The position numbers were made by a program, and so were the translations under genes. From the human T2T-CHM13v2.0 reference genome, Homo sapiens: a DNA stretch of 64,000 nt. Positions 26,527 through 31,585 of this stretch are shown here, one piece after another. The stretch is taken from NCBI RefSeq assembly GCF_009914755.1, contig NC_060935.1. The stretch is one strand, 5' to 3'. The notes beneath the pieces were generated by a model. It was not told the origin of the DNA. It ran no database searches and saw only the letters and a program-made list of their open reading frames with translations. The stretch's first letter is position 1. Every line of letters starts with the position of its first letter.

Positions 26527-27937
26527 TATTCTGTGACAAGGGATCCATTCATACCTAAGAGGACACATGAGCTCCAGTATACATGTCCAAGCATGTTCTG
26601 AGCAACACTGTAAGAGGCCAAAAGTGGAAACAACCCAAGTGCCCATCAACAGCACAAACATTTATACCATTGAATGCCTTACGGCAAGGTAACAGGATCA
26701 AGTACAGCTACATGGAACACATAGATGAGGGAAATAAAACACAAAATACATTAAAATATAAAAAGCACAATTCTATGTATATAAGGTTACATAACATTTT
26801 CAAAATCAGCAACGTTTTAATTAATTTAATTAATTTAGAATTCTCCTGCAGAGGAGTTTTCTCTCTTTTCTCCAATGTGTTAATTTATTTAATCATTTAT
26901 TTACAACAGCACAGATTAATATTTATTTTATATTTTGGAATATGATATAGTAGTATTTTAGTTTGTTCCTTAAATTGTTCAAGATTTGGCCATTGGGAGC
27001 TGTTTTATTGGTTTTTGTACCCCTCTAAAATTACCCCATCAATGCTTTTGTTTGTTTTCTATTTATCACATCCTTATTTTCCAGCACTCCAAGATGCTCT
27101 AGGCCCTTTCTGTATATTTCCTTTCCAGATTTAGAAACTGTATTTCTTCATCAGTATTGCTAGATTGTTTTTTTCTTTAAAAGTGTTAGATTTCAGTTTT
27201 ATTAATCATCTTTTTAAAAAAACATATTGTCCCTTTTATTTGTAATTCTATTTTTATTTTAATGTTTTATTTTTTGTTTTGGTTTTGTTTTACTAATTGC
27301 TTGACTTCAACATAAAAAAAGTTTTAGAAATGTGGTTATTAATTTTCAAGTAAATATGATTGGATTCAGGTTTTTTATTTTTAACCTTCAATATTATTTC
27401 ACTGAGGTCCAGATGTGCTGAATTTATTGACCTATTAAATTTTAATTGACATTTATTTTGTAGTCTTGTATTGGGAAATTCTTCTGTTTTCTATATATTT
27501 TTGGTTGTTGCAGGTTATATGATCAAAATTGTTGTTTGTTGTGCAAATTATTATAGCATTACTAGTTTTGTTCTCTGCACTATTGATTTCTGAGAAAACG
27601 GTGTTACGGGGAAAAAACAAACTTCCATCATGAGTGCAGATTTTTCAGTTTTACCTTATAACTCTCAGTCTTGGCTATGTGTCACTGTTATGTGTTTAGG
27701 TGCGTTAAGTTCATCACTGTAATGTTTTCCTAGTGAATTTTCTTTTCAATAACTATGAAATGTGCTCCTTTGATCCTATCAATACACTGGATATTAATAT
27801 TGTTGCCCTAGGTTTCTTTTGTTTAATATTTGTCTGGATTGCCTGTTCCCATAAATTGACCTTTAATCAGTTAGCTTTGTTCTTAAGATTGGTTTAAAAC
27901 GTAGAATAATAGGGAGGAGCATGGGAGGGTGGGACGT

Positions 27938-28010
27938 CTAATGTAAATCCAGCCCAGTGATTACATTAGCTGGGCGCTGATTAGGTTAGGATGTTGCCCA
28001 GGTACAAGGC
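27938..28010 (+). promoter_or_regulatory. Predicted SRSF8 promoter, paralogous to the KDM4F promoter, with DUX4-type motifs
   Basis: TGATTACATTA 27958-27968, TGATTAGGTTA 27978-27988 (perfect, rc TAACCTAATCA); TATA position changed to TACAAG 28003-28008. Confidence 0.8.
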
Positions 28011-28270
28011 CAGGATCTTCGGGACCTGGCTTCATTTGGAGTTCAGCTACCAAAAGGAAACCTTCCTCTGGGTCCTGGAGTATTTGGCCTGAAATTGGGA
28101 ACTCGGAAGTTGCTGCTCCAGGGCGCTCCCTGCGGAGCTCCGCCGCCCGCCTCTCCGCCCGGCCTTTCCCGGCGTCCCCACGCGGGGCGCAACCGCGAGA
28201 AAGAAACGCAGGTCGCACCGTCAGCGCCCAGAGCAGCGCCAGTTTCCGGGCCCGGGCTGCTCTCGGAGCC

Positions 28271-29119
28271 ATGAGCTGCGGCCGCCCCCCTCCCGACGTG
28301 GACGGCATGATCACCCTCAAGGTGGACAACCTGACCTACCGCACCTCTCCCGACAGCTTGAGGCGCGTGTTCGAGAAGTACGGGCGCGTGGGCGACGTGT
28401 ACATCCCGCGGGAGCCCCACACCAAGGCGCCCCGGGGCTTCGCTTTCGTCCGCTTTCACGACCGGCGCGACGCCCAAGACGCCGAGGCCGCCATGGACGG
28501 GGCGGAGCTGGACGGACGCGAGCTGCGGGTGCAGGTGGCGCGCTATGGCCGCCGGGACCTGCCCCGCAGCCGCCAGGGAGAGCCACGCGGCAGGTCCAGA
28601 GGCGGCGGCTACGGACGGCGGAGCCGCAGCTACGGGCGGCGGAGCCGCAGCCCCAGGCGGCGACACCGCAGCCGATCCCGGGGTCCCAGCTGCTCCAGGT
28701 CCCGCAGCCGATCTCGCTATAGGGGTTCTCGCTATAGCCGGTCTCCCTACAGCCGATCTCCTTACAGCCGGTCGCGCTACAGCCGCTCTCCCTACAGCAG
28801 ATCTCGCTACAGGGAATCTCGCTACGGCGGATCTCACTACAGCTCATCTGGTTACAGTAACTCTCGCTACAGCCGATATCACAGCAGCCGGTCTCACTCG
28901 AAGTCTGGGTCCTCCACTAGCTCTCGCTCTGCATCAACCTCCAAATCGAGCTCTGCGCGACGATCCAAGTCCTCCTCGGTCTCCAGGTCTCGCTCGCGGT
29001 CCAGGTCTTCATCTATGACCAGGAGTCCTCCCCGGGTATCCAAGAGGAAATCCAAGTCAAGGTCGCGATCCAAGAGGCCCCCCAAGTCTCCTGAAGAGGA
29101 AGGACAGATGTCCTCTTAA
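28271..29119 (+). CDS. SRSF8: Serine/arginine-rich splicing factor 8 (SRp46/SFRS2B), intronless SRSF2 retrogene, 282 aa
   Basis: gagccATG; RRM with LKVDNL and RGFAFVRF; RS domain; SRSF2-like termini MSxGRPPPDV..PPKSPEEEG; CpG island. Confidence 0.97.
28712..28891 (+). repeat. Coding 15-bp tandem repeat, 12 units (consensus tctcgctacagccga = SRYSR)
   Basis: Units read directly: tctcgctataggggt, tctcgctatagccgg, tctccctacagccga, tctccttacagccgg, ... Confidence 0.92.
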
Positions 29120-30148
29120 GAAAATGATGCATCAGGAAGCAACGTGATGGAGGACTTGGGGGAAAAGGATCACATACTCAGTCTATGGAAGCAACGTCCC
29201 TGGAAGAAGAGGCTGCCTATTGAAAAGGTTGTGTCACACTTTTCTACCTTTTTGCCAGTTTGAAGCTTTGCATCAGGTGGCAAAATTCATTCTATGTGCC
29301 GTTTTGTTGTTATTCACATTTTATTGTAACTTAGGAGGTGAACGACCTAAGATTACGTTATTGGGTTTGGATATTTGAGGCAAAAATTTATTTTTATTTC
29401 TATAGTGATGACTGTTTTGGTTTGAAATGAACAGATTGGTAACCTAATTTGTGGCCTCCTGACTTTTAAGGAAACGTGTGCAGCCATTACACACAGCCTA
29501 ACGCTGTCAAGACATTGCTTCAACATTGCCTTCATTCCTTAAAAACCTACAAAAGGTGGTGTAAATTAATATGGATAATTTTATTTACCTCCAGGTCTAA
29601 AAGGTAGTGTGACCCAAATTTGTATAAAGATTTTTCATGTGAAAGGACTGGGGTTTTAGCAAACACAGGTCTAATCTCTTTTGTGTTTTTGTGCACCAGG
29701 CCCGGCTGCGTAGCAGTTGAGTGATGCTGGTTAGCTATTAAGGTGGCCTGTTGCAGTGCAGAGTGCTGAGCTGCTTCCTGTTTTCTTCTGATTGCTCCTG
29801 GGGAAAACACGCCTTGTCCTGAAGAACAAATGGCTGTCCAGTTTATTAAAATGCCTGTCAACTGCACTTCCAGTCACCCAGGCCTTGCAGATAAATAATG
29901 GAGCATGCAGTGAGCACATCTAGCTGACGATAATCACACCTTTTCCCCCGTCTTTTCTGAAAAATTGTAAATCTGATCATATCAACATGTATGAACTTAA
30001 AATATGGAGAATGTTATGGAAGAAATAGTTTATAAGTTTGTTAAGTACTTATAACATGGTTTATCTTTTTGATTATTAATTTTTTACGCTAACCATTGTT
30101 TCTGTAGTTAAAATTGTTTTCTTGGTGTTATCTTTTCTCAGAATAAAA
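29120..30148 (+). other. SRSF2-derived 3'UTR of SRSF8, ending in an A-rich tail remnant
   Basis: Paralogous to 66-834; ends ttttctcagaataaaa, after which KDM4-unit intron homology resumes. Confidence 0.85.
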
Positions 30149-30894
30149 TTAGAAACTTTTGATGGAAAGTAGGTTGTTTTATTTTCTGTATGACTTTTGA
30201 ATATTTGTACTTTTGAGAAAATTATTAGCACCAAGTGTTTCTCAAAATATAATTTTTAAAAAATCCTTAATAGGCTTTTAGCTATGTGCTTTATTGTTTT
30301 ATCACAATGCAGTTTATTTGTAGTTTCTCTCTTTTTTCCTCACACCTATGGTTTTTTTACTTCCAAAATTATTTTCAAATAATCCATTTTTGGCTTTCAT
30401 CATTATCCCTACTAGATGTTATGTGTTCTTTTGCAATTGTTTCTGCTTATACCTTTACTAGCAAAGGGAAAAATAACAATTTGGTGTCAATGATCTGGTG
30501 AAAATAGGATTACATTGGAGCCAATTGAATAAATTTATTCTTTCAATCATATGGATCTTCATTAATATTTTTGACTGAATTATCAATTAAAAATATTTCA
30601 TTCCCTTTGTGCAGAAACTGCTAAATCCAGGGTTCGATTCTTGAATGAACTGGCAAGCTGGCTGTGGTCTGTAGATATACATCCCACATTTTGTTGTTAT
30701 AACAGTTAGTAGTTAGTATTGCTTTCATATATAGACTCCAGAATCTAAATTTTACGATAATGACATTTCTTCTGGTCATGACAAATGTAATATTTTACAA
30801 ATATAAATCTACGTAGAATCCAAAGACACACACGGAGCAGTCCTGTCTGAGAAATAAAAAATCAGGACACCCATGGCATCGTAGTAGCCCCTCG

Positions 30895-30913
30895 CGTCCA
30901 GCAGGTGGCGAAG
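30895..30913 (+). promoter_or_regulatory. CTCF-like motif
   Basis: cgtCCAGCAGGTGGCGaag matches the CCASYAGRKGGCR core; local CpG retention. Confidence 0.55.
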
Positions 30914-31131
30914 GGAGGTGAGGTTTATTTATTAAATGGGACCGAGTGGGACGGGGACGGGGCAGCCCTAAGGGTAGGGAAGCATTGTCAATTTCTGGGG
31001 ATAGAATGAGACCCAGGCATAGCTGGAGTTTGAAGCTTTGAAGCAAAAATATCTGTAGAACATCTTAAACGTGACCAAAATATGATGTTAAAATCAGCAA
31101 CTCTTTATACGTTAAAAACTTTGAAACCTGT

Positions 31132-31460
31132 GGCCGGGCATGGTGGCTCGCGCCTGTAATCCCAGCACTTTGGGAGGCCAAGGCAGGTGGATCACCTGAG
31201 GTCAGGAGCTCAAGACCAGCCTGACCAACATGGTGAAACCCCGTCTCTACTAAAAATACAAAAATTAGCTGGGCATGGTGGCGCATGCCTATAATCCCAG
31301 CTACTCGGAGGCTGAGGCAGGATAATCGCTTGAAACCGGGAGACAGAGGTTGTGGTGAGCCGAGATCACGCCATTGCACTCCAGCCGGGGCAACAAGAGC
31401 AAAACTCCATCTCAAAAAAAAAAAAAAAAAAAAGAAAAAGGAAAAAAACAAACAAACAAC
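31132..31460 (+). mobile_element. AluS (Sq-like)
   Basis: Full dimer with long A tail; TSD aactttgaaacct at 31117-31129 and 31461-31473. Confidence 0.95.
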
Positions 31461-31470
31461 AACTTTGAAA

Positions 31471-31585
31471 CCTAGGAACAATTTTGGACCTGTTGGAGCA
31501 GAAATGTGTAGTTGTCATTGAAGGTGTGAACATACCCTACCTCTACTCTACATGTGGAAGACCTGACCCACAGAGGACATGAACC
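31471..31585 (+). pseudogene. KDM4 JmjC remnant (resident gene of the SRSF8 unit)
   Basis: ctaggaacaattttggacctgttggagcag..gttgtcattgaaggtgtgaacataccctacctctac..atgtggaagacc..gaggacatg, matching KDM4F 10918-11040. Confidence 0.9.

What the first reader, a model, noticed from the sequence alone, without database searches (positions are those of the whole stretch)
27900..31585. SRSF8 arose by promoter capture: an SRSF2 retrocopy inserted at the exon-1 donor of a KDM4 unit
Seen: the KDM4F unit is an empty site (9470-9520: ggagtattttcatcaGGAATTGTGAGTttttggtggaagttagg). In the SRSF8 unit the left flank ends ggagtatttggcctGAAATTGGGAACT (28091-28103), the ~2.0-kb retrocopy follows, and the right flank resumes AAAATTAGAAACTtttgatggaaagtagg (30145-30157). 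These look like degenerate 13-bp TSDs that map onto the predicted KDM4F donor GTGAGT. Intron homology continues to 30457 and a KDM4 JmjC remnant lies at 31471-31585. Known: KDM4E and SRSF8 (SFRS2B) are reported DUX4-induced genes. Inference: the retrocopy took over a KDM4 paralog's promoter and first exon while the resident gene decayed. This would put a splicing factor and H3K9 demethylases under one duplicated cleavage-stage promoter. I do not know of this mechanism being described for SRSF8.
Basis: partly seen in the sequence, partly recalled or inferred. Interest (0 to 1): 0.9.

Follow-up and report, generated by a model that had tools for sequence, protein, structure and literature searches.

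The report
SRSF2 retrocopy captured a KDM4 promoter
The human splicing-factor gene SRSF8 is a processed copy of SRSF2 that landed just downstream of the start site of a KDM4E/F-type demethylase gene copy. It therefore sits behind that gene's DUX4-motif promoter, which probably explains why an early-embryo and muscular-dystrophy factor switches it on.

Summary
The KDM4F unit aligns to both sides of SRSF8: 7797-9479 to 26448-28085, 9498-9801 to 30157-30457, and 10913-11041 to 31467-31585.

The 2.04-kb insert (28108-30145) is a full-length processed SRSF2 copy. It starts about 30 nt after the SRSF2 TATA box, lacks two introns, and ends at the SRSF2 poly(A) site. It is flanked by a degenerate direct repeat, 10 of 13 bases matching.

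The captured promoter carries two DUX4 motifs and a TATA box, and exists in five genomic copies: KDM4E, KDM4F, SRSF8, SRSF8BP and chr7 SRSF8CP. RefSeq SRSF8 transcripts start inside this KDM4-derived DNA, at 27921 and 27963. The resident KDM4 reading frame has decayed.

New here:
- The junction is shared by all three SRSF8-type copies.
- The chimeric unit was duplicated with its KDM4 neighbour as a block of roughly 25 kb.
- chr7 SRSF8CP is a second-generation retrocopy that carried the promoter along and keeps an intact reading frame.

Untested: the DUX4-induced start site, and the predicted KDM4E/F first exon and donor.

Verdict: a new member of a known kind (retrogene promoter piggybacking). 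I found no description of it in the searched literature.

The parts
19957..22402 (+). Distal upstream part of the KDM4-type unit that hosts SRSF8 (the B unit). It is homologous to KDM4F-unit 5067-7717.
   Evidence: 73-79% identity. Also colinear with the SRSF8BP unit.
26448..28085 (+). Proximal upstream flank, homologous to KDM4F-unit 7797-9479. It contains the captured promoter.
   Evidence: 71.7% over 1743 columns. The last 470 bp have K2P 0.19 to KDM4F.
27958..27988 (-). Pair of DUX4-type motifs (TAAYBBAATCA) at 27958-27968 and 27978-27988. They are homologous to 9349-9359 and 9369-9379 in the KDM4F promoter.
   Evidence: 4 matches in the 64-kb window, all four in these two promoters. 1.02 were expected, and 3 of 100 shuffles reached 4. 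The motif is taken from a passage of review PMC12376486.
28003..28009 (+). TATA-like element. It reads TACAAGG in human SRSF8 and TATAAAG in KDM4E, KDM4F, SRSF8BP and SRSF8CP.
   Evidence: Alignment A1. Coordinates read.
28030..28090 (+). Leader homologous to the predicted KDM4E/F first exon (KDM4F about 9424-9491). This is the most conserved stretch of the unit.
   Evidence: in KDM4F 9418-9467, 42 of 50 columns are invariant across four genomic copies, and KDM4F-SRSF8 identity is 0.96.
28091..28107 (+). Left copy of the target-site duplication: the 13 nt GAAATTGGGAACT, possibly 17 nt with CGGA.
   Evidence: 10 of 13 identical to the right copy.
28108..30145 (+). Processed SRSF2 retrocopy. It is full length from the TATA-directed SRSF2 start to the SRSF2 poly(A) site, with two introns absent. 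The CDS is 28271-29119 (282 aa, one RRM).
   Evidence: A CpG island covers about 28000-29000, with observed/expected CpG of 0.8-1.09.
30142..30147 (+). AATAAA formed where the retrocopy end meets the A-rich start of the right repeat. The SRSF8BP-lineage transcript fossilised on chr7 ended about 21 nt after its equivalent.
30145..30162 (+). Right copy of the target-site duplication (AAAATTAGAAACT, then TTTGA).
30157..30457 (+). Right flank, homologous to the sequence downstream of the KDM4F GTGAGT (9498-9801), i.e. the predicted intron 1. It now lies in the SRSF8 3'UTR.
   Evidence: (70.6%), (the mRNA runs to 32274).
31448..31585 (+). Remnant of the resident KDM4 coding exon (KDM4F residues 146-178, one stop). 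An Alu-sized masked repeat lies just upstream at 31111-31466.
32236..32274 (+). Distal AATAAA and the annotated 3' end of the SRSF8 mRNA.
9318..9503 (+). Reference empty site in the KDM4F unit: DUX4 motif pair, TATAAAG at 9394-9400, predicted first exon, GTGAGT at 9492-9497, and the target equivalent at 9486-9503.
1451..2988 (+). Decayed KDM4 coding exon of the sister unit SRSF8BP (KDM4F residues 104-637, at least 14 stops).

Best explanation
**Shown.** One KDM4E/F-type unit, called the B unit here, consisted of a CpG-poor TATA promoter with two DUX4 motifs, a short untranslated leader, an intron and a single coding exon. It received a full-length, sense-oriented processed SRSF2 mRNA copy. The insertion lies about 70-75 nt downstream of the start site predicted from the TATA box, and it duplicated 13-17 nt of target in the way expected for LINE-1-type insertion.

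**Inferred.** RNA polymerase starting in the KDM4-type promoter then reads straight into the SRSF2 5'UTR and reading frame. The retrocopy's end supplies a poly(A) signal, which cuts the KDM4 exon off from its promoter, and that exon decayed. The DUX4 motif pair makes the new gene DUX4-inducible, like KDM4E. The CpG island brought in by the SRSF2 5' end probably adds broad, low-level somatic expression from start sites at its upstream edge.

**Shown.** The chimeric unit and its KDM4 neighbour were later duplicated in tandem as one block, giving KDM4E-SRSF8BP and KDM4F-SRSF8. Still later, a transcript of the SRSF8BP lineage that began upstream of the promoter was itself retrotransposed to chr7, giving SRSF8CP.
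For: **Colinear flanks and retrocopy**
- Flanks on both sides align to one KDM4F stretch.
- The retrocopy spans 28108-30145. SRSF2 introns at reverse-complement positions 1117-1441 and 1759-2752 of L001 are absent. The 5' end lies about 30 nt after the SRSF2 TATAAA and the 3' end at the annotated SRSF2 end.
- The direct repeat matches at 10 of 13 positions, with 0.009 such matches expected.

**Shared promoter**
- A genome-wide search with the KDM4F promoter found 5 of 5 scored matches: KDM4F, KDM4E, and the DNA immediately 5' of SRSF8, SRSF8BP and SRSF8CP. In all three SRSF8-type copies the homology stops at KDM4F 9478/9479.
- In the core promoter, 122 of 150 columns are invariant across four genomic copies, against 14-33 of 50 per bin further upstream.
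- All 4 TAAYBBAATCA matches in the window lie in the two promoters. The pair is also present in KDM4E and SRSF8CP, and one of the two survives in SRSF8BP.

**Transcripts**
- RefSeq NM_032102.4 starts at 27963 and NR_103726.1 at 27921, both inside KDM4-derived DNA.
- A macaque protein model (P0002) reads colinearly through 27905-28288. 128 residues align at 82.8% identity, so the same junction exists in an Old World monkey.

**Host decay and later duplication**
- The KDM4 frame has decayed in both B-type units.
- The E block and F block are colinear at 77-83% identity.

**Literature (passages only)**
- SRSF8 is bound by DUX4 in ChIP-seq and was previously identified as upregulated (PMC5409219).
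- SRSF8 rose 4.0- and 6.17-fold in tables of transfected myoblasts (PMC5323140).
- SRSF8 is among early DUX4-affected genes at 3 h (bioRxiv 10.1101/2021.05.04.442407).
- KDM4E is a DUX4-induced cleavage-stage gene (PMC12376486).
Against: - No 5'-end data were available. The annotated start sites lie upstream of the TATA-like element and within or before the DUX4 motifs, and the human SRSF8 TATA is altered to TACAAGG.
- RefSeq does not annotate the KDM4E/F first exon or donor. The KDM4E mRNA starts about 6.4 kb downstream of the promoter copy.
- All SRSF8-type repeat copies read GG where KDM4E/F read the donor GT.
- Only about three A residues remain of any poly(A) tail, and the repeat is degenerate.
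- All three SRSF8-type copies keep a CpG island, which could act as a promoter on its own.
- SRSF8 and SRSF8BP are much more alike in the promoter and 5' CDS (K2P 0.07-0.10, RRM dS 0.072) than in the right flank (K2P 0.287) or the BLAST flank segments (77.6-78.8% identity). Gene conversion rather than constraint may explain part of the promoter conservation.
- Divergences look old (SRSF2-SRSF8 RRM dS 0.37; B unit against KDM4F unit 71.7% identity upstream, K2P 0.43 downstream), yet proteins named SRSF8 were found only in anthropoid primates.
Confidence: 0.8

Rival explanations
1. The working SRSF8 promoter is the CpG island that the retrocopy brought with it (SRSF2 5'UTR and exon 1). The KDM4-type promoter is only a neighbouring DUX4-responsive enhancer, or is inert, so 'promoter capture' overstates its role.
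For: - A CpG island with observed/expected CpG of 0.8-1.1 is kept in SRSF8, SRSF8BP and even the chr7 copy.
- The RefSeq start sites do not sit about 30 nt downstream of the TATA-like element, and the human TATA is altered.
- RefSeq lists an hESC enhancer element across 27787-28544.
Against: - The annotated start sites (27921, 27963) lie in the CpG-poor KDM4-derived DNA, 145-187 nt outside the retrocopy.
- The DUX4 motif pair and the leader are the best-conserved part of the unit.
- SRSF8 is DUX4-bound and induced, like KDM4E.
Confidence: 0.15
2. The retrocopy settled in a KDM4 unit whose gene was already dead but whose promoter was still active. It did not displace a living gene. This is a variant of the best explanation, not an exclusive alternative.
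For: - Left and right copies of the duplicated target in SRSF8 and SRSF8BP all carry G at the position of the donor T, and A at the fifth donor base, where KDM4E/F have G. The target therefore probably read GG, not GT, when it was hit.
- The cluster holds further KDM4D-like pseudogenes.
Against: - KDM4E/F could equally have gained the GT after the units split, and no outgroup copy of the promoter exists in this genome (5 copies only).
- The sister unit still holds KDM4F residues 104-637, so most of the exon was present at the block duplication.
Confidence: 0.35
3. The promoter upstream of SRSF8 was acquired secondarily by gene conversion from KDM4E/F. It was not there at insertion.
For: - In the proximal 470 bp, KDM4F-SRSF8 K2P is 0.19. 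That is below KDM4F-KDM4E (0.23) and well below the right flank (0.43).
Against: - Homology to the KDM4F unit runs for more than 4 kb upstream in several blocks and resumes downstream of the insert.
- The junction is identical in three copies and in macaque.
Confidence: 0.03
4. The 13-nt repeat is a chance resemblance, and the insert arrived by a DNA-level rearrangement rather than retrotransposition.
For: - The repeat is imperfect (10 of 13).
- No poly(A) tail remains.
Against: - Both SRSF2 introns are missing precisely, and the ends coincide with the SRSF2 TATA-directed start and poly(A) site.
- Both flanks overlap on the same segment of the empty site.
- Only 0.009 chance matches are expected.
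Confidence: 0.02

Closest known systems
Retrogenes that piggyback on a pre-existing host or neighbour promoter (Carelli et al. 2016, PMC4772013; passages read)
   Same: The retrocopy integrated inside another gene's transcription unit in the sense orientation and is transcribed from that gene's promoter, so its 5'UTR includes host-derived sequence.
   Different: - There is no splicing from host exons. The retrocopy sits directly in the predicted first exon/donor region.
- The host gene is a tandem paralogue that then decayed.
- The promoter is a specialised DUX4-motif promoter shared with the surviving paralogues KDM4E and KDM4F.
- SRSF8 has 0 occurrences in that paper's main text, and its supplementary tables were closed.
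Retrocopies that inherit a promoter because the source transcript began upstream of it (class A of Carelli et al. 2016, about 3% of expressed retrocopies)
   Same: chr7 SRSF8CP is flanked by a perfect 13-bp repeat. It contains about 490 bp of DNA upstream of the SRSF2-derived part, including the TATA box and both DUX4 motifs.
   Different: The source is itself a chimeric retrogene (the SRSF8BP lineage), so this is a second-generation copy. Whether its carried promoter is active is untested.
SRp46/SFRS2B described as an expressed PR264/SC35 retropseudogene (Soret et al. 1998; title seen in the reference list of PMC9022966; content recalled, paper not held)
   Same: The same gene and the same parent gene, and the same conclusion that it is a functional retrocopy.
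   Different: The KDM4-unit host, the empty site, the shared DUX4-motif promoter and the duplication history are not in any text I could read. That paper may describe flanking sequence that I could not check.
[quoted passage not shown]
   Same: A DUX4-motif element supplies a start region for an unrelated coding sequence.
   Different: Here the element is a low-copy gene promoter (5 genomic copies), not a recognisable high-copy retroelement. It gained its new cargo by insertion of the cargo, not of the element.

Membership tests
Processed (LINE-1-type) retrocopy of SRSF2 | Parental introns precisely absent | tested here: met
   SRSF2 reverse-complement positions 1117-1441 and 1759-2752 of L001 are missing between consecutive alignment blocks.
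Processed (LINE-1-type) retrocopy of SRSF2 | Ends coincide with the mRNA 5' and 3' ends of the parent | tested here: met
   The copy starts at SRSF2 position 581, about 30 nt after TATAAA. It ends at 3799, against the annotated gene end at 3797.
Processed (LINE-1-type) retrocopy of SRSF2 | Poly(A) tail | tested here: inconclusive
   Only about three A residues follow 30145, and they merge with the A-rich start of the repeat.
Processed (LINE-1-type) retrocopy of SRSF2 | Target-site duplication and a matching empty site | tested here: met
   10 of 13 positions identical, with 0.009 chance matches expected. Both flanks overlap on KDM4F 9486-9503.
Retrogene with captured host promoter | Sense insertion downstream of the host start site within the host transcription unit | tested here: met
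   Colinearity and the position about 100 nt after the TATA-like element. The host start site itself is only predicted.
Retrogene with captured host promoter | Transcripts begin in host-derived DNA | tested here: met
   RefSeq starts at 27921 and 27963, against the retrocopy start at 28108. This rests on annotation, not on reads.
Retrogene with captured host promoter | Regulation shared with the host gene family | not testable with these tools
   Literature passages only: SRSF8 is DUX4-bound and induced, and KDM4E is DUX4-induced.
Direct DUX4 target promoter | TAAYBBAATCA motif near the start site | tested here: met
   Two motifs at 27958 and 27978. All 4 of the 4 window matches lie in the two promoters.
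Direct DUX4 target promoter | DUX4 occupancy, and a DUX4-dependent start site downstream of the motif | not testable with these tools
   Occupancy is reported in a passage of PMC5409219. No start-site data were available.
KDM4D-like demethylase gene unit (KDM4E/F type) | Intact JmjN and JmjC reading frame | tested here: not met
   Only residues 146-178 remain, with a stop. KDM4F itself has JmjN at 16-50 and JmjC at 176-292. The unit is a KDM4 pseudogene shell.

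The most novel reading that the evidence does not exclude
One compact DUX4-responsive promoter module (two DUX4 motifs, a TATA box and a leader of about 65 nt) has been kept across five paralogous copies. 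It co-regulates H3K9 demethylases (KDM4E, KDM4F) and a small family of SRSF2-derived splicing factors at genome activation.

The module has spread three ways: by tandem block duplication, by receiving a retrocopy, and by being carried inside a second-generation retrocopy to chr7. The chr7 copy, SRSF8CP, is annotated as a pseudogene. It nevertheless keeps the promoter, a CpG island and an intact 293-codon frame, and may be a functional DUX4-inducible gene.
Probability: 0.3. Interest if true: 0.65.

Novelty: new member of a known kind. Interest (0 to 1): 0.5.

Why it matters
- It gives a concrete cis-regulatory reason why a splicing factor appears among early DUX4 targets in FSHD models, alongside KDM4E. 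The 31-bp motif pair can be deleted to test this.
- It is a clean, datable example of a retrogene born by landing behind a specialised embryonic promoter.
- It shows that SRSF8-type sequences form a three-copy family in humans. RNA-seq, qPCR and proteomic assays for "SRSF8" may cross-read SRSF8BP and SRSF8CP.

Tried and rejected
**Promoter as a high-copy repeat or LTR.** Rejected at this sensitivity. The whole-genome search returned only 5 matches, and the stretch is not in the masked-repeat list. The masking looks sparse, so an old, unrecognised element is not excluded.

**KDM4D promoter as the source.** There is no homology between the KDM4F unit upstream of its CDS and the KDM4D exon 1-2 region (L003). 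Similarity to KDM4D begins near the coding exon.

**Absolute dating from divergence.** Abandoned, because the numbers disagree:
- Promoter-proximal K2P is 0.10, retrocopy 5' 0.07, 3' exon 0.14, and right flank 0.287 for the same SRSF8/SRSF8BP pair.
- RRM dS is 0.072 between SRSF8 and SRSF8BP but 0.37 to SRSF2.

Only the order of events and two phylogenetic lower bounds are claimed. The bounds are the macaque junction, and an Aotus protein that matches SRSF8 at 108 of 115 positions against 99 for SRSF8BP.

**Orthologous empty site in non-primates.** Not possible, because no other mammalian genome is reachable with these tools. In the protein search, 5 of the 120 listed hits were named SRSF8 or SRSF8-like, all from anthropoid primates. 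4266 candidates were left out before scoring.

**Literature.**
- SRSF8+DUX4: 7 papers.
- SFRS2B+DUX4: 2 papers.
- KDM4E/DUX4/SRSF8, at least 2 of 3 terms: 42 papers, 30 listed. Only a cancer gene list holds both KDM4E and SRSF8.
- SRSF8+retro*: 39 papers, 30 listed.
- SRSF8+'genome activation': 2 papers.
- SRSF8CP/SRSF8BP/KDM4F: 21 papers, 15 listed.
- One search was badly framed and uninformative.

In the listings and passages I read, none describes a KDM4-unit origin of the SRSF8 promoter. Not seen: Soret 1998 and Geng 2012 (neither held) and all supplementary tables, including Carelli 2016 Table S4.

**Published KDM4E 'promoter' ChIP-qPCR primer** (PMC9163108). It maps to L002 6156, about 1.1 kb upstream of the RefSeq KDM4E start and about 5.3 kb downstream of the promoter copy. 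It therefore says nothing about that copy.

Full report
**Observation.**
Self-BLAST of 5000-14000 against 14001-36000 (17 hits) shows the KDM4F unit aligning to both sides of SRSF8:
- 7797-9479 to 26448-28085 (71.7%);
- 9498-9801 to 30157-30457 (70.6%);
- 10913-11041 to 31467-31585 (79.1%).

More colinear blocks lie further upstream (5067-5668 to 19957-20545; 5894-7717 to 20536-22402). The KDM4F unit is therefore an uninterrupted version of the DNA around SRSF8, and the break falls between 9479 and 9498.

**The insert.**
I aligned the window to the SRSF2 locus fetched from chr17 (L001, reverse complement).
- 28108-28632 matches SRSF2 positions 581-1116.
- 28645-29126 matches 1442-1758, with an expansion in the RS region.
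- 29126-30145 matches 2753-3799.

Two SRSF2 introns (1117-1441 and 1759-2752) are cleanly absent. Position 581 lies about 30 nt after a TATAAA in the SRSF2 promoter. Position 3799 is 2 nt past the annotated SRSF2 end. This is a full-length processed copy of an SRSF2 mRNA. The CDS at 28271-29119 encodes 282 residues with one RRM.

**Junctions.**
The left flank ends GAAATTGGGAACT, then CGGA, before the retrocopy. The right flank resumes AAAATTAGAAACT, then TTTGATGG. Both overlap the same KDM4E/F segment, GGAATTGTGAGTTTTTGG (alignments A1 and A2).

The two 13-mers agree at 10 of 13 positions. Only 14 of the 63987 13-mers in the window match the left copy that well, so about 0.009 are expected within a 41-position search. 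No real poly(A) tail remains.

One detail cuts against a literal reading of "inserted at the donor". In every SRSF8-type copy, left and right, in both SRSF8 and SRSF8BP, the base at the T of the KDM4E/F donor GT is G, and the fifth donor base is A. The target therefore probably read GG when it was hit, or KDM4E/F gained the GT later. No outgroup copy exists in this genome to decide.

**The promoter.**
A whole-genome search with KDM4F 9200-9520 found five matches: KDM4F, KDM4E, and the DNA directly 5' of SRSF8, SRSF8BP (chr11, just left of the window) and SRSF8CP (chr7). The gene names come from the annotation table. In the three SRSF8-type copies the homology stops at KDM4F 9478/9479. In KDM4E it runs on.
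- The aligned core holds two DUX4-type motifs and a TATA box.
- All four TAAYBBAATCA matches in the 64-kb window are in the two promoters, at homologous positions. 1.02 were expected, and 3 of 100 shuffles reached 4.
- The motif pair is also in KDM4E and SRSF8CP, and SRSF8BP keeps one of the two. The motif itself is cited from a review passage.
- Across the four genomic copies, 122 of 150 columns of the core and leader are invariant, against 14-33 of 50 per bin upstream.
- The promoter is CpG-poor, and the retrocopy brought a CpG island.
- Human SRSF8 alone reads TACAAGG at the TATA box.

**Transcripts.**
RefSeq NM_032102.4 starts at 27963 and NR_103726.1 at 27921, which is 145-187 nt upstream of the retrocopy, inside KDM4-derived DNA. 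A chimeric 5'UTR is thus already annotated.

The mRNA runs on to 32274, through the KDM4 intron remnant, an Alu-sized repeat and the KDM4 coding remnant, to a distal AATAAA.

A macaque protein model (P0002) translates colinearly across 27905-28288. 128 residues align at 82.8% identity, so the same promoter-junction-retrocopy arrangement exists in an Old World monkey.

**History.**
The SRSF8BP unit is colinear with the SRSF8 unit through the promoter, the whole retrocopy and the right flank. The larger block chr11:95023217-95047146 is colinear with window 5001-30457 at 77-83% identity. So a two-unit block (promoter-KDM4, a KDM4D-like pseudogene, promoter-SRSF8-type copy, KDM4 remnant) was duplicated in tandem after the insertion.

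Noncoding measures order the events:

| Comparison | Measure |
|---|---|
| KDM4F unit vs SRSF8 unit | 71.7% identity upstream; K2P 0.43 in the right flank |
| KDM4E vs KDM4F | K2P 0.22-0.235 |
| SRSF8 vs SRSF8BP flanks | K2P 0.287 in the right flank; 77.6-78.8% identity in upstream BLAST segments |
| SRSF8BP vs SRSF8CP | K2P 0.015-0.03 |

SRSF8 and SRSF8BP are much closer in the promoter-proximal 470 bp (0.10), the retrocopy 5' part (0.07) and RRM synonymous sites (dS 0.072) than in their flanks. This points to gene conversion, constraint, or both. I make no absolute date claims.

**Second-generation retrocopy.**
chr7 SRSF8CP covers the equivalent of window 27611-30168 only. It shares with SRSF8BP an Alu at the site equal to 29395/29398, which SRSF8 lacks. 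It is flanked by a perfect 13-bp direct repeat, with about three extra A residues before the 3' copy.

It is therefore a retrocopy of an SRSF8BP-lineage transcript. That transcript began at least about 490 nt upstream of the SRSF2-derived part and ended about 21 nt after the AATAAA formed at the retrocopy end.

This shows that chimeric transcripts spanning the KDM4-derived DNA existed in the germline. It does not show use of the TATA/DUX4 core, because the transcript started upstream of it or was a 5'-truncated read-through.

The chr7 copy keeps both DUX4 motifs, the TATA box, the CpG island and an intact 293-codon frame. SRSF8BP stops at codon 234. Gorilla, orang-utan and gibbon proteins named SRSF8-like or SRSF8 isoform X2 match the SRSF8BP/SRSF8CP type slightly better than SRSF8: 107-111 against 103-105 of 115 positions.

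**Host decay.**
tblastn of KDM4F finds residues 146-178 with one stop at 31448-31546. In the sister unit it finds residues 104-637 with at least 14 stops at 1451-2988. The first remnant sits at the N-terminal edge of the JmjC region, since the Pfam core is residues 176-292.

**Literature (passages only unless stated).**
- SRSF8 (as SFRS2B) was among genes bound by DUX4 in ChIP-seq and previously identified as upregulated (PMC5409219).
- It rose 4.0- and 6.17-fold in tables from DUX4- and DUX4c-transfected myoblasts (PMC5323140).
- It is among early DUX4-affected genes at 3 h (bioRxiv 10.1101/2021.05.04.442407).
- Its phosphorylation rises after DUX4 induction (PMC10655719).
- KDM4E is a DUX4-induced cleavage-stage gene.
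- KDM4E and KDM4F were reported upregulated in arrested human embryos.
- Carelli et al. 2016 describe the general classes of retrocopy promoter gain. SRSF8 does not occur in its main text.
- Six further searches found no description of a KDM4-unit origin for the SRSF8 promoter.
- Soret 1998, Geng 2012 and all supplements could not be read.

**Verdict.**
The structural claim is secure. Promoter capture, in the sense that SRSF8 is transcribed from KDM4-derived DNA that carries the family's DUX4 motif pair, is well supported. The DUX4-dependent start site and the KDM4E/F first exon remain predictions.

The mechanism belongs to a known class, retrogene promoter piggybacking. The case appears undescribed, and it comes with an unusual sequel: block duplication and a promoter-carrying second-generation retrocopy. 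Interest 0.5.

Noticed in passing
L011 3565-6496 (chr7:47213565-47216496): SRSF8CP is annotated as a pseudogene. It is a second-generation retrocopy flanked by a perfect 13-bp direct repeat. It carries about 490 bp of upstream KDM4-type DNA, including the TATA box and both DUX4 motifs. It also has a CpG island and an intact 293-codon frame.
   Followed up: partly
L010 4627-5492 (chr11:95044627-95045492), just left of the window: The SRSF8BP frame stops at codon 234. Gorilla, orang-utan and gibbon proteins named SRSF8-like or SRSF8 isoform X2 match the SRSF8BP/SRSF8CP type slightly better than SRSF8. This paralogue may have been functional until recently in the human lineage.
   Followed up: partly
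window 27615-28632 against L010 3970-4990: SRSF8 and SRSF8BP differ by only K2P 0.07-0.10 (RRM dS 0.072) across the promoter and 5' CDS. Their right flanks differ by K2P 0.287, and upstream BLAST segments are 77.6-78.8% identical. This suggests a gene-conversion tract, strong constraint, or both.
   Followed up: partly
window 28003-28009: Human SRSF8 reads TACAAGG where the other four promoter copies read TATAAAG. The macaque model's residues (PGIKPGS against human PGTRPGS) are compatible with an intact TATA box in macaque.
   Followed up: no
L002 834-864 (chr11:95025834-95025864): The KDM4E copy of the DUX4-motif promoter lies about 6.4 kb upstream of the RefSeq KDM4E mRNA start, and about 5.7 kb of extra DNA sits in the presumed intron. 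A published KDM4E 'promoter' ChIP-qPCR primer maps to L002 6156, not to this element.
   Followed up: partly
L003 7166-7176 and 7635-7645 (chr11:94985166 and 94985635, KDM4D intron 2): Two further TAAYBBAATCA matches lie in KDM4D intron 2. The neighbouring gene CWC15 is listed with SRSF8 among DUX4-bound, upregulated genes in PMC5409219. The whole CWC15-SRSF8 neighbourhood may be DUX4-responsive.
   Followed up: no
window 22402-26448: About 4 kb is present in the SRSF8 unit, where the KDM4F unit has about 80 bp and the SRSF8BP unit about 1 kb. The nature of this insertion was not examined.
   Followed up: no
window 29227-29700: RefSeq non-coding SRSF8 isoforms splice out 29228-29699 or 29604-29699, inside the part copied from the last SRSF2 exon. 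This may echo SRSF2's own 3'UTR splicing. That link is recalled, not checked.
   Followed up: no
window 18293-18559 and chr11:95018890, 95037580: Three short KDM4D-like pseudogene fragments (LOC100420801, LOC100420802 and LOC100420803) sit between the promoter-bearing units. None has a copy of the promoter.
   Followed up: no
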